Below the pieces are notes generated by a model that had not been told where the DNA came from, ran no database searches, and worked only from the letters and a program-made list of their open reading frames with translations. Shown here in pieces: positions 16,865-58,604 of a stretch of 64,000 bases of DNA. The stretch comes from the human T2T-CHM13v2.0 reference genome, Homo sapiens: the NCBI RefSeq assembly GCF_009914755.1, contig NC_060930.1. One strand, written 5' to 3'. Position numbers and translations under genes: made by a program. The first letter of the stretch is position 1. Each line of letters begins with the position of its first letter.

Positions 16865-17090
16865 TGTATTTGTTTTTACCTAGCAAAAACATACATGGTG
16901 CATTGTATGTGTCAGACCCTATTCTAAGTACTTTATACATATTAGCTCATTTAATCATCGTAACAACCTTTATTCTTATTTTACAGATGAAGAAATACAG
17001 GAACAGAAATGTTAAGTCATTTGCCCAAAGTTTTTCCGACAGTGATTAGCAATGATAGATGTAAGCCCAAGCAGAATGGCTACAGTCATT
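16865..17090 (-). mobile_element. MIR SINE
   Basis: TTATTTTACAGATGAAGAAATACAGG...GTTAAGTCATTTGCCCAAAG. Confidence 0.7.
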
Positions 17091-17213
17091 TTCTTGAAAA
17101 TTACACTGTGCTTTCTCAGCTGTTACATCTTTAAATACAGACCATTCTCTTTGTGCTCTTTTTCTGGACCTCCTTTCTAACAGATGTGCTGGGAAGTTCA
17201 CAACGTATTTCCT

Positions 17214-19225: not shown

Positions 19226-19239
19226 GGAAGTTAAAAAAA

Positions 19240-19350
19240 ATTACTAAGAGTTTCAAGACAGTGACCACAAAGCATTAAATCAAACATAGGGCCCTTCTGA
19301 GTGCAGGGTCCTTTGTGACTGCATGGGTCGCAGGCCCATGAAGCTTCCTT
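19240..19350. mobile_element. MER91-like DNA-transposon remnant
   Basis: GGGCCCTTCTGAGTGCAGGGTCCTTTGTGACTGCATGGGTCGCAGGCCCATGAAGC resembles a MER91-family end. Confidence 0.4.
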
Positions 19351-19778
19351 TGTAATAAAAGAAAATTTAAAACAAATAATATGTACAATCACAAAGAGAC
19401 AATACATAAAGAAGAAAATTGCTGATCATGACTTCATTAAAATAGCGAATGGCTAGTCAACTAAGAAAATTGTAGATAAAATTAAGATGAATAATATTTG
19501 AAAGAGCACAATACAGTGATCACTAGAACTAAGGAGCCTCAGTTTGAGTCCTGGTTTCACAATATATCACAAGAAGAAAAATTTACTTAAATCCTTTGAG
19601 CCTCAGTTTTCTTGTGATATAAGATAAATGACTGTATTACTTACTTCATTGGGTTTTTGTGAGAATTAAGAGAGCTAATAGATGTAAAGAACTTAGAACA
19701 ATACCTTACACATAATAAGCATGCAATAAATAGTATTCATTTGTATTATATTCACAGTGTATAAAATAACAAGAAGTT

Positions 19779-39616: not shown

Positions 39617-40049
39617 CTGAAGACAATGAGAGAGAATACAGGGAATGATTAGAAACAGTTGAGAAAGGTAGAGAAAAAAAGCAGATATCATATAAATAAA
39701 TATAAATACATAATACTAACAGTGTTACTTTCTAGAATATGGGATTAATAAATATACATTATATTTATTATCACAAAAAATGTAAGTTATCTTTAATACA
39801 AATAGTCTAGAACATCAGTTTCCTAAGAGGTGAAAAACTGGATGCCTCAGGGACCACAGTGCTGGGAGCCTTCACGGCACACTGTTTTGTAGTTTTGCCT
39901 AAGACCAAATCTGCCTTTTGAATGGAATCCCATTTTCCATACCTCTGCTCATTGCTAACGTTAAATCCTCGAAGACCCAGCTTAAGAACTTATCTCTACC
40001 AAGAATCCCCCTTGACTAATAGAGCCCTTTATTTCTCTCCCAATCATGT

Positions 40050-40620
40050 ACTAAGGATCTAGTGTATAGAAGATATTACATCTGTTTCTGAGGATAGTGG
40101 GCCAAACAAAACTGGTCCATACTCTTAAGGAGTTTACACTCTTGTGTGACAGATGGACATATCAACAGAAAATTGCAATACGCCAAAAGACAGTTAATGA
40201 ATTCAACCTGAAAGAAATAGTACTAGGAGGAAGTGATGCTGAACTGATGAGTGATTGCAGTGGAAAATGGAAAGAATGGAGGTGAGGGCATTTTAGGTAA
40301 AAGGAAAACCATGAGTACACACTGAGGCAAGAAACAACATTGGATGTGAGGAGGAGAAAGAGGTAGCAGGGGGTAAGTAGCCAAGGGTAGCTCAAACAAT
40401 CCCCTCGATTCTGAAGGAGAATTAGGATTGAGGTGAAGAATGGGGGAAGACAGGGAGAGAAAGGGGCCAGGATCAGAGTCTGGGGACCCTTGCTTGTCAC
40501 AAGAAGGAACTAGAGCTTCATTCTATAGGCAGCAAGGCACAGCTGAAGGCTTTTAAACAGTACAGTGGCATGTTTCAACCTAAATTTAAATAGTATTATG
40601 GAAGCTACATCCAAGGTAAC
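40050..40620 (-). mobile_element. L2 remnant
   Basis: Typical degraded L2 segments (CATACTCTTAAGGAGTTTACACTCTTG; AAGGCTTTTAAACAG). Confidence 0.45.
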
Positions 40621-40956
40621 AAGAGTGAAAGAAGGGATGGCCCCACTCATCTGATACCTGATGTGCAAATACATGCTGCCTTGAGTTCATCATTAATTAT
40701 CTTATGGTATGCACTTTCTCTTTTCCAAAAGACTAAAAGTTCATTTAGCACAGGATTTAAATTTTTATAAGTGCTACTGTACCGAAGTCTTACAAAAAGA
40801 TATATTCTCAATGAATACTTAATGTTTAACACCATGTCTTCCTTAACCTAAACCCATATGAATTGATCAGAGAAGAATGCTGTTCTTCATAGACTACAAA
40901 ATTCCACAGGTTCTGTTATTGCCCTCCAACTCCCGTCTCTAAAGCTATTCTCTTAC

Positions 40957-41081
40957 CCTTTGATCCCATCTGCATTTCCTTGTGAGTGAATCTGGCACTC
41001 CCTATGTGGGCCATCTTTAACTCTAGATTATTTTATCTGGTCCAAACTCATTCTGAGGCTTGGAGTCTTTCTATAGGATTC
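40957..41081 (-). other. OR11A1: Predicted non-coding 5' exon of OR11A1 (125 nt)
   Basis: Acceptor GCTCACCTCTCTCCTGGCAG|G; donor AGG|GTAAGA. Confidence 0.55.
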
Positions 41082-41174
41082 CTGCCAGGAGAGAGGTGAG
41101 CATGTAAATCAGGCAAGAATACCTCTAATAATAAATAGCTCATGACCACTACCTCCCCTGGAAATCAAGAGTAT

Positions 41175-41480
41175 CATTGGAGCTGGAGGCTATTATTTTA
41201 AGTGAAATATCTCAGAAACAGAAAGTCAAATATTGCATATTCTCATTTATAAGTGGGAGCTAAATAATGTGTGCACATGAACACAGAATTCAGAATAATA
41301 GACATTGGAGACTTGGAAAGGTGAGGTGGGAAGGGGTGAGGGATGAGAAATTACCTAATGGGTATAATGCACACTATCTGTGTGATGGTTACACTAAAAG
41401 CCCAGACTCAATCGCTACACAATATATTCATGTAACAAAACTGCACTTGTACCCCTAAATCTGTAAAAGTAGATATGAAA
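41175..41480 (+). mobile_element. L1PB/L1MA 3' end
   Basis: CATGTAACAAAACTGCACTTGTACCCCTAAATCTG. Confidence 0.8.
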
Positions 41481-42519
41481 AGAAAAGAAATGGGAAAAAC
41501 ACAGAAACAGTAGGATATATGAGAGGCTGTTATTCCCTTAAAGACAGAGGGGAATCAGGGAATAGAGGAAGTTGATGAATTTAGAGTTGAAAACTCCAAG
41601 GAATAGAGCTGAATTTGGAATTGGAAAACTCAAAAAACTGCAGGAAGAGTTTGAAATCAACAGGAATTTCACCATACTGACTGGTAGAGAAGTAAGAATA
41701 GTGCAAAATGCCTGTTTGTTGTCTAACGAACAATCAGCCACACACTCAATTCTAAGTAAAAACCATAACCCTCATTCAACCCAGACTCTGAGATAGCATA
41801 GAGTCCTTAATTAAAACGAGCAATTCAAAGAATATTCCAGGAAAAAATATTTTAAAAAATATATACAAAACTGTACATTTTAATTCATCTTTAGGTATTA
41901 GAAAAAAATTTATTCTCATATTTTGAAATGTCTGCTAAACAAACATGTTATGTTTGTAAGCAGAAAACCAAAAAGTTAATTCAGTTTGATTTTTTTAATC
42001 TGTTAATTCTCCTCAAGTCTCTTCAGTAATTACTCCATAATAAAACATTAAAATATACTTAAAAGGTTTTAAAAGAAAACAGTATAATTTTAAGTATATC
42101 CCAGTTTTGTCAAGCCATGGGATAGCAGGAGGAAAACTTTCCACCATGAAAACATTAGTATGAGGGTGTCTCGCTTCTTCCTACTCTGTAACATATCAAC
42201 TGAAGCTTGGGGAGCATGAATATCTACTGTTCCCCATCTCCAAAAGAGAAGAGAGAATTAAAAAAATAAGTCAGTATGCACCCAGAAGGATTAGAAATCA
42301 ACTTTTAAAAACATCCAATGGAGAAAAGAGCAGCACTGGTATTCTAGAGAAATACTGCGGGACTTCTTGAAATGATTTTTAATAAAAGACTTTTTGACTC
42401 TCTGGGTTAATTGAAAGTTGCTAGTGATTACAGGATAAACAGCTATAAAAACCAGCCATTTAACTTTTTTAAAGAATCTGTGAACTAAGCTGTAAAGAAT
42501 TTTACAAAAATAAACGTAC

Positions 42520-42643
42520 CCGAAATATCGACCCTGTTCTCTAAAGACAGGACTGTGAGGAGGAGATGATCTGCTAAGATTTGCTGAAGACTTCAGAATG
42601 TTGGAATTTCCTACCTTCAGCTCCCTCCCTGCTTGAGCTCAAC
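42520..42643 (-). other. OR11A1: Predicted non-coding 5' exon of OR11A1 (124 nt)
   Basis: Acceptor TGTTCTACGTTACTTCAG|G; donor CGG|GTACGT. Confidence 0.55.
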
Positions 42644-43699
42644 CTGAAGTAACGTAGAACATTGATTACAAATGTCACCCTTGTTACCCTCCACTCCTGA
42701 GCCATTTTCTCTTCCACCCTCCATCCCCTTTTCTAGCTCTCAGGCTATTCTGTCCTTTCATCGCAGTCCTTTCCCTCTATCACATGGGAGGGCAGGAAAT
42801 TGCCACAAAGGGAGAGGCCCCTGAGAACCAATTACAGATTTACTGGAGAGCAGCCTGAAATGAGCAAGACATAGCAGGCCCCTAAGGAAATTGTATTTTT
42901 TCAAAGGCGGTTTCCTGAACTGTTGGCTTGACCATAAACGGAGCAGAAACCAAAAGAGCCAAATGGAGCCCACCTTTCCATCCCCTTGGGGACAAATGCT
43001 CTCCATTTCACCAAACATCTAAAGCCCCAATTCCTAGTCTCCATAACTCACCAGAAAATTCTGATTTCTCTGCAACATCCCTAAATTCCCCATTACCAAC
43101 AGTGGTCCTCCCAGCAGCCTGCCCTCAACTTTCATTCTCCAATCTACAGCCTCCAAATCGCCCTCTTACCATCCCAGGCAATTGTTTCAATAGGTACCAC
43201 CCTTAGTAGGGGTGTTTTATATAGATCATCAAAATCTTGCCAATGCTGAGCCTGATTTAAGGAGAAGGAAGGTGGCGTGATGTTACAAAATGACGTTGAA
43301 ATGGTTATGTAGCGTTTCAATATCCTTCCTGACCAAATTACTGCCCAACAACTTTGTCTGCCACTACTCCCTTTTTTGAAGCTTCCACAGAAATCAGGCT
43401 GATATATTTATTTCTCATCCCTAGGAGTGTGTTGAAGGCACTTCTGTGTCATTTATCAAACTCAGACCCTAACTTCAGCTCCACTTTCTCCCTGACCAAC
43501 CGAGAACACTTTTTCTCTGAACTACGTTGTCTACTATCTGTAGTTCACAGTAAATGCCACCCTATTTTTTCTTGGCAGCAGGAGGGGTTCTCTTAATCGT
43601 TTATTTTTTTCATCAAACAGCAGCATATGCTAAAAGGTAAGTATATGTGTCTTGAAAAGAAAACTTTTGGAAAAATGTAGCATTTTTTAGTTAGCCTAC

Positions 43700-45250
43700 A
43701 TTATTATGATTTTTAATTGACAAATTAAAATTGTATATATTTATGATGTATAACATGATGTTTTGACATATGTATACATCATGGAATGACAAAATCAAGC
43801 TAATTTACATGAACCATTACCTCACATACTTATCATGTTTTTGTGATGAGAACACTCAGATCTACTCTTTTAGCAATTTTCACATATACAATTCATTAAT
43901 TATAGTCACCCTTTCATATAATAGATCTCTTGAATTATCTCTCTTGTCTAACTGTAATTTTTGTAACCTTTGACCAATATCTTCTCAATTTTCTCCCTTT
44001 CTTCCAGCCCCTGGTAACCACCATTCTATTCTCTGTTTCTGTGAGTTTGACTTTGTAGATTTCATGTAGAAGGGAGACCATGAGGTATTTGTCCTTCTGT
44101 GCCTGACTTATTTCAGTTAATATAAGGTCCTCCAGATTCATCCATGTTGTTGCAAACAACAGAATTTCCTTCTTCTTTAAGGCTGAATAGTATTCCACTA
44201 TGCATATATACCACATTTTCTCTATCCATTCATCTGCTGAGGGATGCTTAGGTTTATTCCACATCTTGGCTATTGTGAATAATACTACAATGAACATGAA
44301 AGTGTAGATCTCTCTTCTTATTTCCTTTGAATATATACACAGACAAGGGATTGCTGGGTCATACAACGGTTCTATTTTTAATTTTTTCAGAATTTTTCAG
44401 AAACCTCCACAGTGTATTTAATGACTGTACTAATTTACGCTTCCACCAAAAGTGTATGAGTTCTCCTTTTCCACATTTTCATCAACATTTATCTCTTATC
44501 TTTTCTGTAGTAGGCATTCTAACAAGTGTGAGGTGATATCTTATTGTGAATTTAATTTGTATTTCCCTGATGACTAGTGATGTTGAGCATTTTTTCTTGT
44601 ACCTGTTTGTCATTTGTACGTCTTCTTTTGAGAAATGTCTATTCAGGTGCTTAGCTCATTTTAAAATTGAGTTATTTGTTTCCTTGTTATTGATTTGTTT
44701 AAGTTCCTTATATAGCTTGAATTTTAGCCACTTACATGTATCATTTACAAATATTTTCTCTCAACCTGTGGGTTGTCTTTTCACTCTATTGTTTCCTTTG
44801 CTGCGGAGAAATGTTTTAATTTGATGCAATCCCATTTGTTTACTTTTGGTTTTGCTGTCTGTGATTTGAGGATCATATACAAGAAATCTTGCCCATACCA
44901 ACGTCATGGAACTTTTCTCCTATATTTTCTTCTAATAGTTTTACAGTTTGCAGTCATATGTTTAAGTCATTAATCCATTTTGAGTTAATTCTCATATATT
45001 GAGTGTCATAAGGATCCAATTTCATTCTTCTGCATGTGGATATTCAGTTTTCCAACATCATTTATTAAAAAGACTTTTCTTTCACCGTTTCATGTTCTGT
45101 TTATATGATCATATGGTTTTATCTTTAATTCTGTTAATGTTATGTATCACATTTATTGATTTGTGTGTTGAACCATCCTTGCATCTCAGAGCTAAATCTC
45201 ACTTGATCATGGTGAAAGATCCTTTTAGTATACTGTTAAATTTGGTTTGA
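43700..45250 (-). mobile_element. L1MA 3' portion, antisense
   Basis: Minus ORF 43935-44366 YDPAIPCLCIYSKE...WYICIVEYYSALKK is the L1 ORF2 C-terminus; the 3' terminus is near 43700. Confidence 0.9.
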
Positions 45251-46676
45251 TAGAGAAACACAACTTCAGAGATAATTCAAGTTTAAGATGGGAAAGTCTG
45301 ACTAATCTTAATTCTTACAGATATTTTAGCAAACTTTTTGTCAAAATACATTTTATGGACTTTTTAAGGTCATCAGTTCAGACCACAGTCCCATGGATAA
45401 AGACAAGGATCTGTGGGGAGTAGATGTTTGTATTGTTAATCACCCTGGTGAGAGGTTAATCCTGGGGTATAAATGAAGTCTCCAAAAGTAGGTGATATAT
45501 TAGCATGAAAAATACATTTCTACCTTCCCTTGTGTCCTGGGGTCAATTTGGCCTAAACTGCAAGACGTGAAAAGATTATAAGTAGTTCCAAATGAAATGA
45601 AATATACCCTTGGCCACATAAATTACCTAGTGGAATTCAAGTGTGTGTGGATCAGTATAACAGCATATAATTCTCTGCACTACATTTACTTTCCACTAAG
45701 TTAGAACTACAGTAAATTATTCTATAAGCTACAACTTGATATATGTTGTACTAGGAGAATTCTAAGAGGGCCTGTGGCCTTGCTTAGAAAAAGCAGGTAC
45801 AGGGGACAGTGGTTGCTGTTCCCACAGCCAGGGTGGAGAAAGCAATGTCAACCACTGCAAAGGATGACAAAATAAAAAGAGTCAGTCAGCTCTCACAGAG
45901 CAGCAGCTTGAAGGCACAGAAAAGACACAAGAGAGGAAGGACCAGAGGAGACATTCCTGAACACATCTTGCAAACTCTCAGAAGTGACTATGGGATGCTT
46001 CACGGGGGCTAACTTCAAGCTCAAGTTTGACAACCATTTATGTTGTTTGGCTTTGGTCACATATATATCCTATTTTGTATCAGTAATTCCAGTTGGAAAA
46101 GAAACCACACATTTCCATGAGTCTCCCATGTTACTAAAATATTTCATAAGCTCGAGCTCAGTGATGTTTTCTGATTATTTGTTCCTTAGACTCCAGCCTA
46201 GGCATCCAAGGCAATCTGAATCCATAGAAACTTTAATAACAGTACATCATGGACCTAACCCAAAATATTGTTCAATCTCTTATCTTTGAAAACTTCTTGA
46301 GGATTAACAATATATTTTAATACAAAAGAGATAGTATTCAACCCAGCAGGATTTTACAAAAACAAATTATAGCTCTTTGTGGTTTCTGTTAGAGATTTAC
46401 ATAGTCTTACCATTTAGATTTCTTCTTCACTAGACTACGAATTAGAAGTAAATATTATCCAGGGCAGATGGTGTATCCTATTCATCTTTGTATCCCAAGA
46501 ATATTTTAGCTGTGTCATAAATGATTAGTGAATAAGTAGCAATGCATGAATGCATGAATGAAAAAATAAAAATGGTCACTTGATTCATAATCCCTGGCCT
46601 TCTAAAAATATATTAACACAATGTCCGGTTGAAAAGAAAGTTCCAAACATTCCACCAGTAGACATGACTAGCAATA

Positions 46677-47341
46677 GAGTTGACCTTCATTATTTGTGGA
46701 TTCAGTATTTGCAAAGTCACCTGCTCCCTAACATCTATTTTTAACCCCTAGCTCAATACTCACAGCACCTTCGCAGTCGTTCATGGACAAGTGCATGAAC
46801 ACAGTGACAAAAAGTTTGAGACACACTGTATGCATCCCCACCTGATGCTGAGCAAGGAAACGCTCTGTCCTCTTGTTTCAGCTATTATACTGTAAACAAG
46901 TGTCCTTTTCATGATTTCCTGATTTGCTGAATGCCATATTTTTCACATTTTTTGTTTGTTTTTTGGTGATTTCATAATTCAAAATAGCCCCAAATGTAGC
47001 GCTGAAGTGCTGTCCCATGCTCCTGAGCACAAAAAGGTTGCAATGGATCTTACGGAGAAAATGCATTTGCTAGATAAGCTCTGTTCAGGCATGTGTTATA
47101 GGGCTGTTGGCTGTGGGTTCAACGTTAATGATCAACGATATATATTATATAAGATGTGTTTAAACAGAAACACACTTACAATAAGGTTATTTATTGATCA
47201 GGTGACAAAAATGTGACCAAAAACTCATAGGAATCTAACCCTGCATCTCCCCTAAAGCAAGGAATTATTTAATATTTGCTCCTACAGGGTTCAAGGCAAC
47301 TTTATAGAATGCAACTGCAGTGAATAATAAGAATCAGCTGT
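46677..47341 (+). mobile_element. MER82-like (TcMar-Tigger) DNA transposon
   Basis: Degenerate TIRs GAGTTGACCTTCATTATTTGTGG / GTGAATAATAAGAATCAGCTG; internal KHKKVAMDLTEKMHLLDKL Tigger HTH-like remnant (ORF 46956). Confidence 0.75.
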
Positions 47342-47504
47342 GTCTGCATTTTAAAGATGAGAAATATGAGTCTCATTAAAATGAAGTGAATTGTACAAAG
47401 TTATAGAATAGGTTAGTCATAGAGCCAGCATTAAAACCCTGGCCTAGTTCAGTGCTCTGTCAGCTGTATCTTCAGTTCTGAAAATGCAATAAGAAAAGAT
47501 AAAA

Positions 47505-47637
47505 TACGGAATTCAGTCGGCCAGTGGCCCGCAATCCTCTTCTCTCGGTTCCTCTTTCCTCGCTCAAGATGGCGCTGCTCGCGAAGCGTTCTTGGCGTTG
47601 GGCGGCCGCAGCGGCTGCTTTCGAAAAGCGCCAGCAC
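47505..47637 (+). pseudogene. ABCB7: Captured 5' fragment of an ABCB7-like transcript/exon 1 (5' UTR plus ~23 codons)
   Basis: ATG 47569 encodes [23 protein letters not shown], nearly identical to the human ABCB7 N-terminus as I recall it ([23 protein letters not shown]); 15 CpGs in ~135 bp in an AT-rich background. Confidence 0.85.
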
Positions 47638-48015
47638 AATGAGATACCATCTCACACCAGCTAGAATGCCGATCATTAAAAAGTCAGGAAACGACAGGTG
47701 CTGGAGAGGATGTGGAGAAATAGGAACACTTTTACGCTGTTGGTGGGACTGTAAACTAGTTCAACCATTGTGGAAGTCAGTGTGGCGATTCCTCAGGGAT
47801 CTAGAACTAGAAATACCATTTGACCCAGCAATCCCATTACTGGGTATATACCCAAAGGATTATAAATCATGCTGCTATAAAGACACATGCACATGTATGT
47901 TTATTGTGGCACTATTCACAATAGCAAAGACTTGGAACCAACACAAATGTCCAACAATGATAGACTGGATTAAGAAAATGTGGCACATACACACCATGGA
48001 ATACTATGCAGCCAT
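47635..48015 (+). mobile_element. Internal fragment of a young L1PA ORF2 C-terminus, no 3' UTR or poly(A)
   Basis: ORF 47639 [36 protein letters not shown]...HTMEYYAA is uninterrupted; L1 similarity stops at GCAGCCAT. Confidence 0.92.
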
Positions 48016-48395
48016 TCTGCATCTTTCTAATGACAAGAATATTCTCCAGCATAACCACAATACTATTATTACACCCAAGGGAATTAACATTGAACCAATA
48101 ATATAAAACCCATATTCAACTTTCCCACTTGTTCCAAATCTTTTTTATAGTTGTTTTTATTTTGTTTTGTTGATGACGTAGGATCCAGTCAAAAATCATG
48201 AATGACATTTTATTGCCATGGCTTTTGGTCTTCTTCAATCTGGAACGATGTCATCTCCCATCTTTGCTTTGTCTTTAAAGACATGGATATTTTTTAAGAG
48301 TTTGTGTCAGTTGTCTATAGAATATGCCACAATATGGATTTGTCTGACTGTTTTCTTATACTCCAATTAAACATTTTTAGCAATAATACTACATA
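48016..48395 (-). mobile_element. Ancient L1MC-like 3' remnant
   Basis: CAAGAATATTCTCCAGCATAACCACAATACTATTATTACACC...GGATTTGTCTGACTGTTTTCTT. Confidence 0.55.
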
Positions 48396-50671
48396 GGTTA
48401 CACTAAGAGTGGACAAATAGCAATCCAAATTATTCTACTCCATTCTGTTCCCTGTAACATTAATGGCATCATCTTCAGCCATAACAGGGCTACACTCTGG
48501 GAGTAGATGACTGATGAGCTGAGAGAAAACAGATTCCTGAGGAATTCTGGATCAGAGCAGCCATATTTCCCTGAACTACAAATCTTTAGACATTTAAGTG
48601 AGAGATAAATTTTCATTCTCTTTGAGCCATTGGCATTTCCATTACTTTCAGCCAAATCTAATAAATAAATGAAATGATAAAATATAAAGGAGTCAGAAGA
48701 AAACTAAGTACGAAATCCAGTTTATGTAAACCCTGAACTTCTAGTTATATAAATTAATAAGTAAATGTATTACTTAAACCCGTTGGAGTTGGGGCTTGTT
48801 ATAATGGTTGGTATGTCTTGAAAACATTCTATTTGACACACAGCTTTTATCACATCTATGAAAATGTATAAAAACACAGAAGAAACAAATCAAATAATAG
48901 ATACCAATGATAAAAATGCAAAGAAAGATTTGTATAATAAATGAAAAAGAAATCAAAGCAAGAAAAATTAGTGACAATTGTATAAGAAAATGACATTTAG
49001 CACCTCAATTAGGTCAAAACATGTTTATTTCTCTTTTATATTATTAGTTACCTGTAGAATCAATAAAACCTGCAAGGGACCCTATAAATAGTTATCAAAT
49101 AAATTGATTACTGGATTATATCAATATACATAAGAAGGGTAAAATTGCATTATTACTTTTTGTAGATGTACTAGAACATCTACAGTGATGGGAAAAAATC
49201 ATGAGAAAAAAGAAGAAAATTAAAATGGTTGAACCAGAGATATGGGAGAACTAAGAGAAACCAATAGCTCTGGATATATTCTTTGAAATGTTCTTAACAG
49301 GTCATTCTGTATTTCTTGCAATCTAAGAAACAGATTCAAAATAACAGATTAATTGGTTTTGTGAAGCATTCTCCCCATTGGAAAGCCAAGAATGCTTGGA
49401 GACTCAGATCCTCAGAGAGCGTAAAGAGAGACAACAAACCTAAGAGAGGCTTCCTCAAGAGGGATCCACTATGTAGATAAAAAAGAAGATAAGCAAGTCA
49501 CAAATGCCATCTGCCTTCACTGGTTATTTCTCCAAATAGAAAATAGAAAGACACCTTTGAGATAATATCTTCTGGAAAACACTGAAAGAGCCCCCAGAGG
49601 AGAATGAACCAAGGGCTCTTCAACTGCAAAAGGATATCAGTGTGTGGACTTGTATTTCTAATACACAACCTTGAATATGGCTGGAATATTGAATTTGTGT
49701 ATATATTCAAGTGTATCTTTGGGTGTTTATAGTTTTATGTTCAGTGTATTTAGACTTTTACTGTTATCTGTAATAATGCCAATAGAATACATGATTTGCA
49801 ACTTTAGATAAATCTGGCATCTGGGAATATTAGGCTATTCTTCTGTGCCTGTATTTTGAAATATAATTTGACAGTGTGTGAATTTGTGGAGTTTATGTGT
49901 GTAGTTTGGGGATTTTCATGTTTACAATGTAAGAGGACTAAGTTTGAAAGTCTGTAAGATGCAGAAATAAGCAATTAAGGAAGTTCTTGTCATCTTTTGC
50001 CTGAGCATGTTTTAAAACTAGAGAAATGCTCACCCCTCTAAATAGTTGAACTGTTTAATGCTATAGGAGCTTAAAAAGAGAGGATCTTTCTCATTTTTTT
50101 TCTCCTCCTTGAACACTGTGAAATTTATGGTAAAATGACAGAAAAAGAAGAAAGACTAAGTGAATCTGGTAACTAAAGAAAGAGCTGGAAAAAAGAAAAC
50201 TAGAGGGCAAGAGGTGATAAGAGAGGTCACCTCTTATCAGACAGGAGACAAGTTGATGGAGAAAAAGATCTGCTATGAGGGAAAATTCTGTCTCCAGCCC
50301 TGCAGGAAGAATTGGAAAATCAGAAAAGAGTGAAAAGGGAGCTAGACTGACTTAATCTTCAGCCCAGGTAAAACTGGAAAGACAGTTTAACATGTTCTTT
50401 AGAATGATAGGCACTATCAGGAAGAGATGAAGTCAGGGATTCAGGCTCAGAGAGACAAATACTCATCCAGGATCCCAAGAGTGAGCAAGGGTGGAATATG
50501 GACTCCAGGCAAGGCTGCCTAATTTCAAAGTCCATGATATTCTAATAGAAAGGGAGATCTAGTGCTGCGATCAGATGCAGAGAGAGGTCATCTTTGCCCA
50601 TTTCACGATTCCATAGTTGTGATTTTTCCTTGCCATTTCTTTTGTCTTCCAGTCAAAGGTATGCAGGCAGG

Positions 50672-51610
50672 ATGAGTGCAAACACCTCCATGGTGACTGA
50701 GTTTCTTCTTCTCGGCTTCTCCCACCTGGCCGACCTCCAGGGCTTGCTCTTCTCTGTCTTTCTCACTATCTACCTGCTGACCGTGGCAGGCAATTTCCTC
50801 ATTGTGGTGCTGGTCTCCACTGATGCTGCCCTCCAGTCCCCTATGTACCTCTTCCTGCGCACCCTCTCGGCCTTGGAGATTGGCTATACGTCTGTCACGG
50901 TCCCCCTGCTACTTCACCACCTCCTTACTGGCCGGCGCCACATCTCTCGCTCTGGATGTGCTCTCCAGATGTTCTTCTTCCTCTTCTTTGGCGCCACGGA
51001 GTGCTGCCTCCTGGCAGCCATGGCCTATGACCGCTATGCAGCCATCTGTGAACCCCTCCGCTACCCACTGCTGCTGAGCCACCGGGTGTGTCTACAGCTA
51101 GCTGGGTCGGCGTGGGCCTGTGGGGTGCTGGTGGGGCTGGGCCACACCCCTTTCATCTTCTCTTTGCCCTTCTGCGGCCCCAATACCATCCAGCAGTTCT
51201 TCTGTGAGATCCAGCCTGTCCTGCAGCTGGTATGTGGAGACACCTCGCTTAATGAACTGCAGATTATCCTGGCAACAGCCCTCCTCATCCTCTGCCCCTT
51301 TGGCCTCATCCTGGGCTCCTACGGGCGTATCCTCGTTACCATCTTCCGGATCCCATCTGTTGCGGGCCGCCGCAAGGCCTTCTCCACCTGCTCCTCCCAC
51401 CTGATCGTGGTCTCCCTCTTCTATGGCACCGCACTCTTTATCTATATTCGCCCTAAGGCCAGCTACGATCCGGCCACTGACCCTCTGGTGTCCCTCTTCT
51501 ATGCTGTGGTCACCCCCATCCTCAACCCCATCATCTACAGCCTGCGGAACACAGAGGTCAAAGCTGCCCTAAAGAGAACCATCCAGAAAACGGTGCCTAT
51601 GGAGATTTGA
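50672..51610 (+). CDS. OR10C1: Olfactory receptor 10C1, 312 aa, intact (codon 55 = CAG)
   Basis: MSANTSMVTEFLLLGFS...; motifs LQSPMYLFL, MAYDRYAAICEPLRY, KAFSTCSSH, PILNPIIYSLRN; pyrimidine tract and acceptor AG at 50651-50652. Confidence 0.95.
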   Translation: MSANTSMVTEFLLLGFSHLADLQGLLFSVFLTIYLLTVAGNFLIVVLVSTDAALQSPMYLFLRTLSALEIGYTSVTVPLLLHHLLTGRRHISRSGCALQMFFFLFFGATECCLLAAMAYDRYAAICEPLRYPLLLSHRVCLQLAGSAWACGVLVGLGHTPFIFSLPFCGPNTIQQFFCEIQPVLQLVCGDTSLNELQIILATALLILCPFGLILGSYGRILVTIFRIPSVAGRRKAFSTCSSHLIVVSLFYGTALFIYIRPKASYDPATDPLVSLFYAVVTPILNPIIYSLRNTEVKAALKRTIQKTVPMEI

Positions 51611-52250
51611 AAAGGGGGCGATAGTGACTTCTGTGCAGTGCTCTGAGTCAGTCCCAAATACCTAAGGATCAAAGAGTCTCCCTTAAGGTCTTTCTTCACA
51701 TTAGGGGAGGGCCAGCCTGTCAGAAAGACAAACTTATCTTTGAAAAGCTACCGTAGTCAAATGCGCTCCTCAGACCCTCACAACACATACATATTCTATT
51801 CCGCTTTCTGTTGCAAGAAACAAGAAACCCAGGATGGAGGATCAATTTCAGAAGCAGAGCAAGTTGACAACCAGGGATAAAGTTACAAAATATTATCCTT
51901 ATCAGACTAGCAAGGTAATAAAATTTTCAGCCACAACAATGATCCTTAAAGTCATTTGACATTTGTACGTCCTAGGTAAGGCATTTGTTTCTTGGGTGGT
52001 ACTACTGGTTAGTACCTTAGCAAACATAATTATACCTAATTAAATCTACTACCAGCTAAAGACAGATTCCTCAAGAAGTAAGGAGTGGCCACAAAAGTTT
52101 CAATGAAGGTAAGTTCTTATGGAAATTCATATGCCGCAGAGGTTAAGAGAACAGATTCTGATGTCAGACAGACTTAAAGTCAAGTCTTATTTTTTCCAGC
52201 TAGTTAGCTAAGTGATCACAGGTGAATGATATAATCTCTCTGAGCCTTAA

Positions 52251-52606
52251 TTTTTTTAAATTTTATTTTAGATTCAAGGGTACATGTGCAGGTTTGTTAT
52301 ATAGGTAAATTTCACCTCACAGTGATTATTTAGTCACCCAGGTAATAAGCATAGTACCTGATAAGCAGTTTATTGATCCTCACCCTTCTTCTATCCTCCA
52401 CCCTCAATTATGTCCTGGTATCTGTTGTTCCTTTCTTTGTGTTCATGTGTACTCAGTGTTAGGTCCCACTTTTAAGTGAGAATATATGGTATTTGGTTTT
52501 CTGTTCCTGTGTTAGTTTGCTTAGAATAATGACCTCCAGTTCCATCCATGTTGCTGCAAAGGACATAATCTGTTTGTTTTTTGTTTTGTTCTGTTTTGTT
52601 TTTATG
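52251..52606 (-). mobile_element. L1PA 3' end inserted into a MIR, TSD TGAGCCTTAATTTT
   Basis: GGGTACATGTGCAGGTTTGTTATATAGGTAAA; TSD at 52241 and 52607; the MIR continues on both sides. Confidence 0.85.
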
Positions 52607-53764
52607 TGAGCCTTAATTTTCTTATCTATAAAGTTGCGGTAACAACAGAGTCTAATTCATTGGGTTTTTGTGAGGATTTGTAGACTTGCAAACAATCAAG
52701 CTTAATATCTGGCACAAAATAGTATCTTGATAGATGTTTTTGTTAGCAAGTCAGACAGGTCAGCGCAAAGGCTAATGTTTGGCTCACATGGGGTGACTTT
52801 GCTGGGAAGAGAAGGGTATTCTTGAAATATCAGTGGCATTGGAACCCACAAGAGACCCAGAGGAAGGTGGAAGAAGAGGCTCTATACATCACTGTTAACA
52901 GAAACTGCTACCCAGCACAGATATGAGCCAAAAACTACCAAGACACGGAAGAGCAAATATAAGGGCTATGATATGCAGGAGAGTCAGTGAACTGCAGAAC
53001 AAATAAGTGGAATAAGCTGAGAGGGTGAATCAAAAACAGCCATCTCCAAGAGGCAAGTATTTATTAATAATTAAAAGTGCAATCTACATACTTTATATCA
53101 TTCCAACACTTTATTCAAATGCAACAGTATTTATTGCAAACTTTCTATGTGCCTATTGCTCTTTGGCACTGTGGAGAATATCAAGTACATACAGGGTGGT
53201 GATTCTGTCCAGAGAGCACTTGCTGTCCTGTTAAGAAAGCACTGATTCTCATGAAACTATCAGAGAACAGTTTGCAAAGTAAGAAAACACTCAAAATGTA
53301 AAGCGAAAAGACAAAGGTGTTACTCCCTGTCCCCACCCCCCAAAAGGGGTTGTGTGGCCTTCCTCAAACTCATTTTATCAATGTGGAAAACCTCACAACT
53401 ACTGCTCTTCAATTGAACAAAACTGCAATAGCGAGGAACAGCATTTAAGAAGGGTTGCCTAAAGGATTGTCAAAACAGCTTTTCCTCTGATAATTTAAAA
53501 TCTAAATCTTATCCCCAAGCTAAAGCAGATGAGCACAGAGCTACACATTTAAAATGCTGAAATATTTCCACTTCCTACATATCTCCATCAACTCATCTTT
53601 CCTAGAACTGGTCTTGCTAAAGAGTGTTTTGGCATTAAGCCATTGGTTTACATTGAGAAAGATTACAAGAAGCAACATTATGAAACTCTCAGAGGGATCA
53701 TTTTTCTCATATCTCAGTGATAGGAATCACTGTATTTTTCCTGTCATATAAGCAATAACATTTC

Positions 53765-54385
53765 CTCACAGTTTTATGGAAGTACAATTGGCATATGACA
53801 AATTGTACATGTTTAAGTGTGCAATTTGATAAGTTTTGACCCATGTATGCACCATGACATTATAGGCGCAATCACGAAATGAACATATCCAGCCCCCGTG
53901 CTCCCTCACACTCCATTGTAATCTCTCTCTTTCACCCCTCCCTGCACTCCTCATTCCCAAGCAACCTCTGATCTGCTTCCCAGCACTATATTTTTCTTTT
54001 TTCAGAGTTTTATATAAATGAAATTATAAAATATGTACTCTTTTTAGTCTGACTTATATTTGGAGATTTGGCCATGTTGTGGTGTGTACAGCAGCCATTC
54101 CTTTTCATTTCTGAGTGATACTCCATTGTATAGATATGACATAATTTGTTCATCCATTCACCTGCTGAAGGAAATTTGGGTTGTTTTCACAATTTTTTAT
54201 TCATTCACCTGCTAAAGGAAGTTCAGGTTGTTTCCAGTTTTTGGTTCATAGAATGAAGGTTCTATGAACATTTGTGTACAAAGTCTTTGTATGCTTTCAT
54301 TTCTCTGGGGTAAATACATAGATGTGAAATGGCTGCATCACATGGGAAGTGTATGTTTAATTTTTTAAGAAATTAAGTAATCACT
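53765..54385 (-). mobile_element. L1MD/L1MC 3' remnant
   Basis: ACAAATTGTACATGTTTAAGTGTGCAATTTGATAAGTTTTGAC...CATTTGTGTACAAAGTCTTTGT. Confidence 0.7.
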
Positions 54386-54676
54386 TTTCCTCTTAACATG
54401 ACAGCTAGCAAGTTTCCACCTGAATTTGTAACTCATCTCCAGGAAATGTGCAATTCCTCACGATATATTTTTGAGATATCTAGTTTCTGGTCTCACTTGC
54501 TGTTGTTGTTGTTGTTCTATTCTACCTTTTTCTTTGTCCAGTCTCTCTCATCCTTATTTTCTGTACATTTATGTAACCCAGCACATTAGTCTTTCTGGAG
54601 CAAGACTTAGAGCCACCAATCAGTAATTAAAAAAAAAAAAATAGACAGGGGAAAGTATTGAATGGAAAATCCCTGG

Positions 54677-55042
54677 TTATATGGTTTGGCTCTATGTCCC
54701 CACCCAAATCTCATCTTGTAGCTCCCATAATTCCCATGTGTTGTGGGAGGGACCTGGTGAGAGATGATTGAATTATGGGGGTGGATGTTTCCTGTGCTGT
54801 TCTTGTGATAGTGAATGGGTCTCACATGATCTGATGGTTTTAGAAATGGGAGCTGCCCTACACAAGCTCTCATTTTTCCTGCTACTATCCATGTAAGATG
54901 TGATTTGCTCCTCCTTGCCTTCCACCATGATTGTGAGGCCTCCCCAGTCATGTGGAACTGTAAGTCCAATAAACCTCTTTGTTTTGTAAATTGCCCAGCC
55001 TTGGGTAAGTCTTTATCAGCAGTGTGAAAACAGACTAATACA
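54677..55042 (+). mobile_element. THE1 (MaLR) solo LTR, full length
   Basis: T(T)ATATGGTTTGGCTCTATGTCCCCACCCAAATCTCATCTTG...AATAAACCTC...CAGACTAATACA; flanks CCCTGG/CCTTGG. Confidence 0.92.
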
Positions 55043-55667
55043 CCTTGGTAAAGATTGAAGACATGGGTTGTGATCTCTACTCCGTTACTAAAACTTTACA
55101 GGACCTAGAGCAAACTCTTTGCATCATCTTTTTGGTTTTCAATTTCATCATCAATAAACATAAAGGCTAAATCAAATGAGCTCTGGATTGAGTTCCAGAT
55201 CCACTATTCTGTGCTTATTTGTCCCAAGGACTATATGCTTCTTATAGCTGATACTCTCACAAAGAACCAGAAGGAAGATTGCAGCAAATGCTCTTTCTCC
55301 ACCATAGATAGCTACCAAGGGACCTTGAACTACATTAATCCTGGGCAATATAAGCACAGTCATTGGTTTTCAAGACAAACACCACTCAAAAGCTAGGGAG
55401 AGTCCATCAGTGATCCCCATATTGAGTCTTCCCCCACTGTATTCTACCTTCCTGAACCTCACATCTCCCTTACTCACACCTGCCATTGCCCCTGAGCAAA
55501 ACTTGACCTGCTTCTTGAAATCCCACTGCTCTGTCCCTAATATTTCCTCCTACCAACCTTTCTCCCTGACACTCCCTTCCTCAACTTCCCTAATCCCATG
55601 GGACCCACTCACTATAGTGCACCCCAGCTCCTGATGGTATCTGCTACCAGAAGTATCCTCATTCTTT

Positions 55668-55960
<293 letters not shown>

Positions 55961-58604
55961 AGTATCCTCATTCTTTAGCTTTGCAGAACTGAAGTAAGAA
56001 GTGACTGTGGCATCAGGGAGGGAGGGTAGAAGTCAGATGGAAGGGAAGGGAGAAGGAGAGAAAGAAGAAACAGAGGCAGGCTGAAGAACTGAGCAGAGAA
56101 AAGAGAAAGAACAAAAAAGACCTCAGAGGAAGACTCACCGGCTCACAAGGAAAGCCATCTCTGTGCATCCCAGGCCAATCTCTTCACAGGGCTTGGAGAA
56201 ACCTCCCAACCAGAGCTCACTCCCACAGTCTATGCTCACTGCTTCCCTGCATCAGCTCCTCCTGTGGCAGCATGGTCCCCCTGCGTTTCTGCTCCCCACT
56301 GAGCTCTCTGGGATTCACAAATCAGTGCCCTAGGGAGGGCTTGGAGAGCCTAGCACGTGGGGATCTTACACAGGGGCCAGGAAAGGGATGTAGGACTCAG
56401 GAAGAGACACTGAACAAAGGCTGTGGCTCAGTCCTGGAAATGGGAGCGTGTGCTTGTCCATTGCCAGCCTCTCTGCCTCTCTAGGTTGTGTGCCCTCACT
56501 GGCCTTAACTCTTTCCAGTCAGGGAAGACTAGGAAAGAGTTGGAAGAGGAAATATTGTAGAAGAAAGAAGAGAACTCAGGTACATCAGGGCCACCAAGAA
56601 ACAGGGGCTCTGGGTCTCCCAGGGACATAAGGAGAAGGATTAGGAGCTGACCAGGCTTGCTACACAAAAGATTCCAGGGTTGATCCTCTGAGAGTTGAGA
56701 AAAACAGAAAGTGGGATCTCAGTGCAAACTTCAAGCTTCAAAGATGCCACCCATCATCTATTCAACTTTTTTTTTCTTTTGGCTAACCCTTTACACTTCT
56801 TTCAAGTCTGCGAATAATTATCAAGTTCCCACAGTGTGCCTTATTCTACATAGTGCTGGCAATCTGGTCAACTTCCTTTGTATTTCTCCTCTGCTCAGCT
56901 TTTCAGTGGATCCTCTTCATTCTCCTTCATTCTCACTGCAGCCCAGACCCACTTCCTCCCTTCCCTGAGCTTCCCTTGCCTATCTCCCTCCTCATCACCC
57001 AATCCCATTTCCTGCAAGAAGAGGCAATATTATTAATCTGTCTCATCTACCATAACCACCACCTGGTTTGTGCAATAGCATTTTCTGGATGTTTCCTCTC
57101 CTGGCAGCCAGGACTGACAATGTCACCTGCCAGGGGCCTGGAAAGCCAAGCCACAACCTTCTTAACCAATTAGAGGCACTGCAGAGAAGCAGCAGGAGTC
57201 AGGGCACTTGCACCCAAGAATGATAGATATATTTATTCACCACATATGTATGGATATAGTTAGAGAAACAAGCCTCAAGGCACAACGATTGACTGAGGTT
57301 AGACATTCGGCCACTTGAGAGAATGAGGAGGTGGAAGCACAGAAGTTAAAAGTCATCTCTCTCCCATTTGCTTCAACCTCAGCATGCCTGAAAAAAACAT
57401 GGTTGATAATATACCAGTCAGTGACCAAGCCCTAATGAAATGACTGACTTACCAATACTGACTTCTCAGGAGGCTGATTTAGAGCCAAAGTAACTGCTGA
57501 GTTCTGAATAAGCAGCACACCTGGTCTGCATAATAAGATCCATTTTGCAATCACCCTCTTCAGAAAGCCAAATAATAGGTCAAAAGGTGGTTTAGAACCC
57601 AAGCAGCGGAAATAACACAGTTGAGGACTCTGTCGACCATAGGCACCCTGATGGACCTAAATAAATTACTCAACTTTTCACGAGAATATTTTACCTAATA
57701 ACTGGAACTTATCATCCAGAACAATGTTTTCTGCCTCTTTGTTTTTCAGTTCATGATATTCCTGTGGACTGGCTTTACTCCTAATTTCCGACCCCAATAA
57801 GATCCTGGTCTAGTTCTTGGTATCTAGACCTAATTCCCCATTTGCATAAAAGAATACAAATGATAAACATAGAAACCCTGACCATCCTTGACTCCAAGGG
57901 TAAAAATACTGCCCTAGGCAATCATGATGCCTCTTATTTACTGCCTTTCAAATAGAAACTTTCTAAAGCAGCCATTGGGAAATAGTTCATTTTTGCAATG
58001 GACCACAGATACCTATACACATTGGGCTTATCATTTTGATCTTTATTCAGCTCCTAAAAATAGTCAATTTGAAAAATGGGGTTTGCATTGACAGTTTTAT
58101 ATTATTGATGCCAATTTGGAATTTTATACTTGATAATATTTATTTGTTGAATGAATTTGAACGAGTGGTAGAAGACTCTTCTGGCTGGAGCACTTTTAAG
58201 TCTTGCACTAGCATGGGTCTGGAAATGAACTGAAGGAGGACTAGAGATAAGTACAGGGGTGCGTCCCAATTGTGAATGAGAATGCAGGCCATATACTCTT
58301 TGGAGAATCACCATTATGGGCCCTCTGGCAGTATAAATGAGGCCATTGTAGAGTTATTCTTCTGTATTATCCAAAGAGAGGACCTAAAACAAATTAGTGA
58401 AATAAATACTGTAGGATTTCTGCTAGATGATGAGGCTTTTAATTCTTCCTGTTTCTGGGATGGCCTGGCTGGGCCTCCTTAGGAACTCAGCTCATTCCCC
58501 ATTCCTCCTTGACACTGGATATGCATTCTTTGCATTCCTTGGCTTTCTCTCTGGTGTTCTATAGAAAGTAAATGAGTCACAGTTCCTTCAGTTCTTTCTT
58601 TTAG

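What the first reader, a model, noticed from the sequence alone, without database searches (positions are those of the whole stretch)
47481..48019. ABCB7-5'end/L1 chimeric insertion with no poly(A): a repair-type capture of a housekeeping gene's first exon
Seen: an abrupt CpG-rich patch (15 CpGs in 47505-47637, including a NotI site at 47602) carries CTCAAG-ATG-G and encodes [23 protein letters not shown]. At CAC (47635-47637) it switches into L1 ORF2 sequence. The L1 stops at GCAGCCAT (48015), just before the A-run seen in the in-window L1 copy (18871-18885), with no 3' UTR, poly(A) or long TSD. Only TTCTG (47476-47480 and 48015-48019) brackets the unit, and removing the insert appears to rejoin an old L1MC-like sequence. 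Known from recall: the peptide matches the N-terminus of X-linked mitochondrial ABCB7. Ordinary processed pseudogenes keep 3' ends, whereas endonuclease-independent L1 insertions and templated insertions at double-strand breaks lack tails and can carry captured cellular RNA. Inference: reverse transcription switched template from L1 RNA to the 5' end of an ABCB7 RNA (or its DNA) via CAC while patching a break. The young L1 and retained CpGs suggest a recent, ape-era event.
Basis: partly seen in the sequence, partly recalled or inferred. Interest (0 to 1): 0.85.

Follow-up and report, generated by a model that had tools for sequence, protein, structure and literature searches.

The report
ABCB7 first-exon / L1 fusion without tail
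A 129-base copy of the start of the X-linked ABCB7 gene's messenger RNA sits fused to a tailless internal piece of an L1 jumping gene in the chromosome 6 olfactory-receptor cluster; it is a dead relic of a known, rare kind of L1-linked insertion, and comparing other primates would settle which route made it.

Summary
Window 47509-47637 is a 93% copy (9 differences in 129) of chrX sequence: 60 bases upstream of an ATG plus the first 69 coding bases of an exon. An exon best matching ABCB7 lies 94 kb downstream on the same strand. At a 3-base CAC overlap it passes into 381 bases of L1 ORF2 (47635-48015, residues 1109-1235 of the 1275-residue ORF2 protein). These are 97-98% identical to the closest genomic L1 copies and stop about 330 bases short of the L1 3' end, with no poly(A).

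Two claims fail. The first 28 bases (47481-47508) are not ABCB7 and have no other source in the genome. Removing the insert does not demonstrably rejoin an old repeat: that repeat lies only on the right flank and lacks its upstream half.

Best reading (about 0.5): one L1 reverse-transcription event at a chromosome break, with a template switch onto ABCB7 mRNA and probable loss of target DNA. Main rival (about 0.25): a classical tailed chimera later trimmed by deletion. The locus is absent from the two catalogues I checked. It is a new member of a known kind, of modest interest. Primate orthologues would decide.

The parts
47476..47480 (+). Left copy of the 5-base direct repeat TTCTG
   Evidence: Read. 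It could be a short duplication, a microhomology or chance. No repeat of 7 bases or more brackets the unit.
47481..47508 (+). 28 A-rich bases of unknown origin. They may be extra nucleotides, or native target DNA / the left target-site duplication of a classical event. They begin with AAAA after TG and end with a G that the chrX source lacks.
   Evidence: No other copy in the genome at up to 3 mismatches. Likeness to the chrX upstream sequence is not significant. 47346-47508 has no other genome match.
47509..47637 (+). Copy of the 5' end of the chrX ABCB7 exon 1: 60 bases upstream of the ATG plus the first 69 coding bases
   Evidence: 93% identity, 9 differences in 129, E 4e-47. There are 14 CpGs in the copy and 14 in the source, 11 shared. 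The source exon continues 99 bases further to a GT donor.
47569..47664 (+). Residual reading frame: 31 codons (23 from ABCB7, 8 out-of-frame L1 codons) and a stop
   Evidence: Translation. The L1 ORF2 frame is shifted by one base relative to the ABCB7 ATG.
47635..47637 (+). CAC overlap shared by both parents at the ABCB7/L1 joint
   Evidence: chrX reads ...GGCAC|TCC. The L1 copies read ...ACCAC|AATGAG.
47635..48015 (+). Internal L1 piece: ORF2 codons 1109-1235 with an open frame, lacking the last 40 codons, the 3' UTR and the poly(A)
   Evidence: A related copy carries RVT_1 in the same frame upstream.
48015..48019 (+). Right copy of TTCTG. Its first T overlaps the last L1 base.
   Evidence: Read. 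L1 homology ends at 48015.
48019..48252 (+). Old interspersed repeat on the right flank. It starts at the insert boundary and is missing the upstream 257 positions that 10 paralogous copies share.
   Evidence: nhmmer: model positions 258-493 only, E about 1e-37. No upstream part anywhere in 40001-56000.
46901..47345 (.). Left-flank context: end of a different old repeat family, whose terminus is shared by 11 of 11 fetched copies. It is followed by 47346-47475, which looks MIR-like by eye only.
   Evidence: The MIR label is recalled and was not tested.

Best explanation
This is one non-classical L1 event at a chromosome break.

Proposed steps:
1. L1 reverse transcriptase started on an L1 RNA at an internal point (after ORF2 codon 1235). 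It was primed by the broken DNA end that is now the right junction (48015|48016), not by a poly(A) tail at an endonuclease nick.
2. It copied 381 bases towards the L1 5' end.
3. It switched template at a 3-base CAC overlap onto an ABCB7 mRNA at coding base 69 and ran to that mRNA's 5' end.
4. The cDNA was joined to the other DNA end by end-joining.

The 28 A-rich bases are either filler or native flank. Target DNA, including the upstream part of the right-flank old repeat, was probably lost in the same event. The product is a dead, non-coding relic.

Shown: the parentage, boundaries, orientation and overlap of the pieces, and the absence of a tail. Inferred: RNA origin, a single event, break repair, and target loss.
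For: - Unique chrX parent for 47509-47637. The joint lies inside exon 1, 99 bases before its GT donor, and the L1 side has CAC rather than AG, so splicing did not make it.
- Both pieces are in sense orientation on one strand, as one continuous cDNA predicts.
- The joint has a 3-base overlap. By my hand calculation, about 5% of random blunt joins have 3 or more.
- The L1 piece stops about 330 bases before the L1 end with no A-tail, and its ORF2 frame is still open.
- ABCB7 homology ends 60 bases upstream of the ATG at a C|G step. The copy has a G there where chrX has C. This fits a capped 5' end with a cap-derived G (recalled rule, inference).
- The old repeat on the right begins exactly at the insert and lacks 257 upstream model positions, as target loss would give.
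- Sen et al. 2007 (PMC1920257; Results parts 1-2 of 3 and the screening-methods section read) describe 21 such loci. All are 3'-truncated and tailless. 18 of 21 have target deletions, 15 of 21 have extra nucleotides of 4-312 bases, and two have co-opted cellular RNA (U6; 18 bases of GPD2 mRNA).
- The ages of the two pieces do not conflict: 7 of 381 and 9 of 129 differences.
Against: - No outgroup genome was available, so the empty site, any target deletion and the single-event claim are untested.
- TG/AAAA at 47480|47481 is close to the L1 endonuclease motif. The A-rich 27-28 bases directly before a full-length 5' end look like the left target-site duplication of a classical event.
- The 5-base TTCTG repeat breaks the 'no duplication of any length' criterion of Sen et al.
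- The ABCB7 transcription start was not located by any search (searches gave nothing), so RNA origin rests on weak cues.
- My prior odds against a later deletion are rough estimates, not computed here.
Confidence: 0.5

Rival explanations
1. A classical target-primed chimeric retrocopy, later trimmed. L1 endonuclease nicked at TTTT/C on the bottom strand of 47481-47484|47480. Reverse transcription began on the L1 poly(A), switched to ABCB7 mRNA at CAC and ran to the cap. The insert was flanked by a 27-28-base duplication (47481-47508 being the left copy). A later deletion removed the last ~330 L1 bases, the tail, the right duplication and adjoining flank, including the upstream part of the old repeat.
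For: - TG/AAAA at the left edge resembles the motifs printed for verified events (TC/AAAA, GT/AWAA) in a supplementary table of Law & Burns 2026.
- The 28-mer is A-rich and unique.
- A full-length 5' end with an extra G directly follows it.
- The truncated old repeat at the right junction is explained.
- mRNA first-exon/L1 chimeras in sense orientation are documented: 17 loci (PMC13174262, section 13 read).
Against: - It needs a second, rare event with one breakpoint inside about 1 kb of young L1. I estimate well under 1% per locus, from recalled deletion rates, not computed.
- TTCTG at both edges would be chance, roughly 0.4% by my hand estimate.
- 27-28 bases is long for an L1 duplication (recalled typical range 7-20).
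- No trace of a second 28-mer copy lies right of 48015.
Confidence: 0.25
2. A DNA-templated patch. A break was repaired by synthesis that copied, through microhomology jumps, a stretch of some genomic L1 copy and then the ABCB7 promoter-proximal DNA on chrX, with no RNA or reverse transcriptase involved.
For: - There is microhomology at the joint, no tail and no long duplication.
- The ABCB7 piece lies wholly inside one exon, so it carries no mark of splicing.
- Sen et al. report DNA-templated extra nucleotides at some loci.
Against: - The ABCB7 piece stops 60 bases upstream of the ATG and includes no recognisable promoter sequence.
- The sense-to-sense orientation and the extra G would both be coincidences.
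- The open ORF2 frame and 97-98% identity to many young copies fit an RNA from an active element. They do not exclude a DNA copy.
Confidence: 0.1
3. Two independent insertions of different ages that happen to abut.
For: Per-site divergence looks different: 7.0% between the ABCB7 piece and its source, against 1.8% between the L1 piece and the majority of its closest copies.
Against: - The 7% is the sum of two lineages in CpG-rich sequence. The counts are small (9 and 7) and statistically compatible.
- Neither piece has a tail or duplication of its own, so each would need its own non-classical event at the same base.
- The joint has a 3-base overlap and no filler.
Confidence: 0.05

Closest known systems
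Non-classical (endonuclease-independent) L1 insertions, NCLI (Sen et al. 2007, PMC1920257; Results parts 1-2 of 3 and the screening-methods section read; cell-culture work of Morrish et al. 2002 recalled)
   Same: [quoted passage not shown]
- Non-L1 DNA attached at the 5' side.
- Capture of a cellular RNA by template switching.
- Probable loss of target DNA.
- Microhomology at junctions.
   Different: - The locus is not among their 21 loci. Their screen dropped elements more than 2% diverged or with any duplication.
- Here a 5-base repeat brackets the unit and an endonuclease-like TG/AAAA lies at the left edge.
- The captured mRNA piece is 129 bases and reaches the presumed 5' end, against 18 bases of GPD2 in their case.
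- The pre-insertion site is unverified.
mRNA/LINE-1 chimeric insertions (Law & Burns 2026, PMC13174262; outline, section 13, passages and supplement search seen) and the chimeric retrogenes of Buzdin et al. 2002-2003 (recalled, not read)
   Same: [quoted passage not shown] The 5' piece starts at or near the transcript start.
   Different: [quoted passage not shown]
- Six of their joints end exactly at splice donors.
- Here the joint is mid-exon with a 3-base overlap and no splice signals. The L1 is a 381-base internal piece, and tail and long duplication are absent.
- ABCB7 has 0 occurrences in their main text and in the 4 supplementary files held.
Templated sequence insertions at double-strand breaks (Onozawa et al. 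2014; recalled, not read here)
   Same: A short copy of a distant transcribed sequence inserted without tail or duplication.
   Different: Here the patch is fused to L1 sequence, which points to L1 reverse transcriptase. Membership could not be tested.
Processed pseudogene of ABCB7
   Same: A copy of ABCB7 transcript sequence on another chromosome.
   Different: Only the first 129 bases of the transcript are present. There is no 3' end, no tail and no exon-exon joint.

Membership tests
Non-classical / endonuclease-independent L1 insertion (criteria of Sen et al. 2007) | 3' truncation of the L1 beyond 25 bases | tested here: met
   The piece ends at ORF2 residue 1235 of 1275. The L1 3' end lies 335-385 bases further on in 18 of 19 copies.
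Non-classical / endonuclease-independent L1 insertion (criteria of Sen et al. 2007) | No poly(A) tail | tested here: met
   GCAGCCAT is followed by TCTGCATC.
Non-classical / endonuclease-independent L1 insertion (criteria of Sen et al. 2007) | No target-site duplication of any length | tested here: inconclusive
   No repeat of 7 bases or more brackets the unit, but TTCTG occurs at both edges. Without an empty site, duplication and chance cannot be told apart.
Non-classical / endonuclease-independent L1 insertion (criteria of Sen et al. 2007) | Insertion site departs from the L1 endonuclease consensus TTTT/A | tested here: inconclusive
   It depends on where the true left edge is. CAG|TTCTG departs from the consensus. 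CTG|AAAA (47480|47481) is one base from it.
Non-classical / endonuclease-independent L1 insertion (criteria of Sen et al. 2007) | Pre-insertion state verified in another primate | not testable with these tools
   No primate genome is held. The paralogue-based surrogate failed: 37 of 400 random-left controls score at least as high as the rejoined construct.
Classical L1-mediated chimeric retrocopy (mRNA 5' part + L1 3' part) | Poly(A) tail and L1 3' end present | tested here: not met
Classical L1-mediated chimeric retrocopy (mRNA 5' part + L1 3' part) | Flanking target-site duplication of about 7-20 bases | tested here: not met
   only a 5-base repeat. The 28-mer has no second copy.
Classical L1-mediated chimeric retrocopy (mRNA 5' part + L1 3' part) | Both parts in sense orientation, with the 5' part starting at the transcript start | tested here: inconclusive
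   Sense-to-sense orientation is shown. The start 60 bases upstream of the ATG is compatible with a transcript start, but no call located it.
Splice-mediated exon/L1 fusion (Law & Burns 2026) | Joint at a splice donor of the gene and/or an acceptor in L1 | tested here: not met
   The joint is 99 bases before the exon-1 GT donor. L1 has CAC, not AG, before the joint.
Processed pseudogene | Spliced exons, 3' end and poly(A) of the parent mRNA | tested here: not met
   Only part of exon 1 is present.

The most novel reading that the evidence does not exclude
This is a fixed germline break-repair patch in which L1 reverse transcriptase, primed internally on L1 RNA at a broken end, jumped onto the capped 5' end of a housekeeping mRNA. 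By comparison with the 21 loci tabulated by Sen et al., it would be the longest mRNA capture at a tailless L1 insertion in the human genome. It delivered the densest CpG patch of this 64-kb stretch about 2.3 kb upstream of the OR10C1 start, inside an OR11A1 intron. There it could have seeded a regulatory element.
Probability: 0.4. Interest if true: 0.45.

Novelty: new member of a known kind. Interest (0 to 1): 0.35.

Why it matters
The locus is a clean natural example of template switching by L1 reverse transcriptase onto the 5' end of a cellular mRNA. The joint is mid-exon with a 3-base overlap, which separates it from the splice-mediated exon/L1 fusions catalogued in 2026.

If primate orthologues show a single tailless event with target loss, it extends the short list of germline endonuclease-independent L1 insertions. 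It would also show that such events can carry a CpG-rich gene start into a new place. If they show a trimmed classical chimera, the locus is an ordinary decayed retrocopy. Either way it has no coding potential: 31 codons and then a stop.

Tried and rejected
- Protein Data Bank search with the chrX exon-1 peptide gave no ABCB7 hit, only a chance match at E 0.58. Presumably the solved constructs lack the presequence. I replaced it with an exon found 94 kb downstream.
- A full-text search for the 23-residue N-terminal string found 0 papers.
- Pfam on the 127-residue L1 piece and on the 31-residue fusion peptide found 0 families. The Protein Data Bank search and RVT_1 in a related copy gave the label instead.
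- Empty-site reconstruction from paralogues:
  - Of 24 right-family loci, 10 had alignments reaching 1-15 bases into the left flank and none reached further. None of 11 left-family loci matched the right flank.
  - The profile test was at chance level.
  - I therefore rejected the 'rejoins an old repeat' claim.
- A tblastn search with an L1 ORF2 piece against the right-flank family loci found no consistent ORF2 upstream of the repeat (3 scattered hits in other elements). The 'L1MC' name is unverified.
- The 28-mer as ABCB7 upstream sequence was rejected. As a copy from elsewhere it has no match at up to 3 mismatches. As part of a repeat family, 47346-47508 matches only itself.
- Paper searches found nothing relevant:
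  - ABCB7 + chimeric + retrogene: 0 papers.
  - ABCB7 + pseudogene + LINE-1: 1 paper, unrelated judging by its listing.
  - 'ABCB7 promoter' + 'transcription start': 0 papers.
  - The claim 'not in print' rests on these searches and only.
- L1 subfamily naming was not attempted, because no repeat library is held. Pairwise identity among the closest copies (94.3% over 1200 upstream bases; 55 pairs from 11 of 19 copies with enough overlap) only says they are young primate L1s.

Full report
WHAT IS THERE

There is a CpG-dense patch with CTCAAG-ATG-G (ATG at 47569) and a GCGGCCGC at 47602. There are 15 CpGs in 47505-47637, and this is the only one of 6387 overlapping 133-base windows in the 64-kb window that reaches 15. 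The frame from the ATG gives [31 protein letters not shown] and then a stop.

THE ABCB7 PARENT

A search of the window's own assembly (3.1 Gb, 24 contigs) with 47481-47640 found two places. One is the query itself. The other is contig 23 (chrX) 73589864-73589992, minus strand, at 93% identity and E 4e-47, covering window 47509-47637.

The pairwise alignment and a base-by-base count give 9 differences in 129. There are 14 CpGs in each sequence, 11 of them shared.

The chrX sequence is an exon that reads [56 protein letters not shown] and ends at a GT donor. The copy therefore holds 60 bases upstream of the ATG and only the first 69 of 168 coding bases of that exon. The break is inside the exon.

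The name ABCB7 for this N-terminus is recalled. The tool support is indirect:
- The N-terminal peptide has no match in the Protein Data Bank or in the paper library.
- An exon 94 kb downstream on the same strand carries the ABC signature and Walker B motifs.
- That exon's best single-stretch match is to 'Iron-sulfur clusters transporter ABCB7, mitochondrial' at 62 bits. The two-domain transporters listed above it score about 39 bits per stretch.

THE L1 PIECE

Homology to L1 runs 47635-48015. All 19 fetched copies match at 97.1-97.6% without gaps, and one match starts at 47632. An older L1 copy in the window matches at 89%.

In its own frame the piece is open for all 127 codons. It matches residues 1109-1235 of the 1275-residue LINE-1 ORF2 protein at E 9e-82. 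A related genomic copy carries RVT_1 in the same frame upstream.

In the L1 copies the bases before the piece are ...AACCAC and those after it are AAAAAA(T/G)GATGAG. From this:
- CAC (47635-47637) is shared by both parents.
- The piece stops just before an internal A-run.
- The canonical L1 end and its A-rich tail lie 335-385 bases further on in 18 of 19 copies.

None of that 3' sequence is in the window, where GCAGCCAT is followed by TCTGCATC. The L1 frame is one base out of step with the ABCB7 ATG, so there is no fusion protein.

First, 47481-47508 is not ABCB7. These 28 A-rich bases have no other copy in the genome at up to 3 mismatches. Their likeness to the chrX upstream sequence is at chance level: local score 10, reached by 12.8% of 5000 shuffles. 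47346-47508 matches only itself.

Second, the flanks do not demonstrably rejoin.
- The left flank holds the terminus of one old repeat family at about 47345. The end is shared by 11 of 11 copies.
- Next comes a stretch that looks MIR-like to me (recall, untested).
- The right flank belongs to a different old family.
- A profile built from 10 paralogous copies matches the window only with model positions 258-493, at 48019-48252. The first 257 positions are found nowhere in 40001-56000.
- A construct that removes 47481-48019 scores 117.7 bits. Four hundred constructs with random left halves score 116.6 ± 1.0, and 37 of the 400 do as well or better.
- In blastn, 10 of 24 right-family loci gave alignments that cross the join by only 1-15 bases.
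- I could not show that the right-flank family is L1-derived.

MECHANISM

The joint between the two pieces is mid-exon. It has no GT on the ABCB7 side and no AG on the L1 side, and it has a 3-base overlap. By hand calculation, about 5% of random blunt joins have an overlap that long. Both pieces are in sense orientation. That is what one continuous cDNA made by a template switch from L1 RNA to ABCB7 mRNA predicts. Splice-mediated fusion does not predict it.

ABCB7 homology ends 60 bases upstream of the ATG at a C|G step. The copy has G where chrX has C. This fits a capped 5' end, but the cap-G and initiator rules are recalled, and the real start site was not found by any search.

The missing L1 3' end and tail, and the old repeat cut off exactly at the right junction, fit the non-classical L1 insertions of Sen et al. 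2007 (PMC1920257; Results parts 1-2 of 3 and the screening-methods section read). That paper reports 21 loci:
- All are 3'-truncated and tailless.
- 18 have target deletions.
- 15 have extra nucleotides of 4-312 bases.
- Two have co-opted cellular RNA.

I therefore favour one break-repair event with target loss, at about 0.5.

THE MAIN RIVAL

The left edge reads CTG|AAAA, one base from the L1 endonuclease motif. The 27-28 A-rich bases sit directly before what looks like a full-length 5' end. That is the look of the left target-site duplication of a classical chimeric retrocopy. A later deletion could have removed the L1 3' end, the tail, the right duplication and part of the flank.

Three things weigh against this. 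It needs a second rare event. The TTCTG repeat at both edges would be chance. And 27-28 bases is long for a duplication. These weights are my estimates, not computed. I give this rival about 0.25, a DNA-templated patch about 0.1 and two separate insertions about 0.05.

AGE

The L1 piece differs from the majority base of its 19 closest copies at 7 of 381 sites. This is a lower bound, because the copies were chosen for likeness. The ABCB7 piece differs from its source at 9 of 129 sites, summed over two lineages in CpG-rich sequence.

With a recalled neutral rate of about 0.17% per million years, this suggests very roughly 5-25 million years. 'Ape-era' is plausible but not shown.

WHAT IS KNOWN

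- The locus is not among the 21 loci of Sen et al.. Their screen dropped elements more than 2% diverged or with any duplication.
- Law & Burns 2026 (PMC13174262) catalogue 17 mRNA/L1 chimeras. They are described with duplications, endonuclease motifs and tails, mostly near-full-length L1, and six of the joints end exactly at splice donors.
- ABCB7 does not occur in their main text or in the 4 supplementary files held.
- Three further paper searches found nothing on this locus.

VERDICT

This is a real, unambiguous ABCB7-exon-1/L1 chimera of a known kind. It is probably undescribed and has no coding potential. Interest is modest. The open question is whether it arose as a tailless break-repair event or as a trimmed classical chimera. 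That question needs primate orthologues, which these tools do not hold.

Noticed in passing
window 46901-47345: An old interspersed repeat whose terminus (…GAATAATAAGAATCAGCTG) is shared by 11 of 11 fetched genomic copies. After it the copies diverge. It looks like a DNA-transposon end (label recalled, untested).
   Followed up: partly
window 47346-47475: This stretch resembles a MIR element in reverse orientation by eye. The genome search found no other match at its sensitivity.
   Followed up: partly
window 48019-48252 (and on to about 48400): An old repeat copy that begins exactly at the insert and lacks the 257 upstream profile positions present in 10 paralogues. This is either an ancient truncation or DNA lost with or after the insertion.
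   Followed up: yes
window 17000-19400: An older L1 copy, 89% identical to the young fragment over the same 381 bases. It has the same GCAGCCAT-AAAAA context at 18873-18885.
   Followed up: partly
L002 (chrX 73588364-73591492), about 100-110 bases upstream of the ATG: The source promoter has a TTCCGG (ETS-like) motif about 45 bases upstream of the point where the copy's homology begins. This suits a transcription start near that boundary (recall-based reading).
   Followed up: no
window 47530-47532 and 47587-47588 versus chrX: At three CpG positions the chr6 copy has CpG where the chrX gene does not, and the reverse holds at three others. Both lineages have therefore changed since the copy was made. 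An outgroup is needed to polarise the changes.
   Followed up: partly
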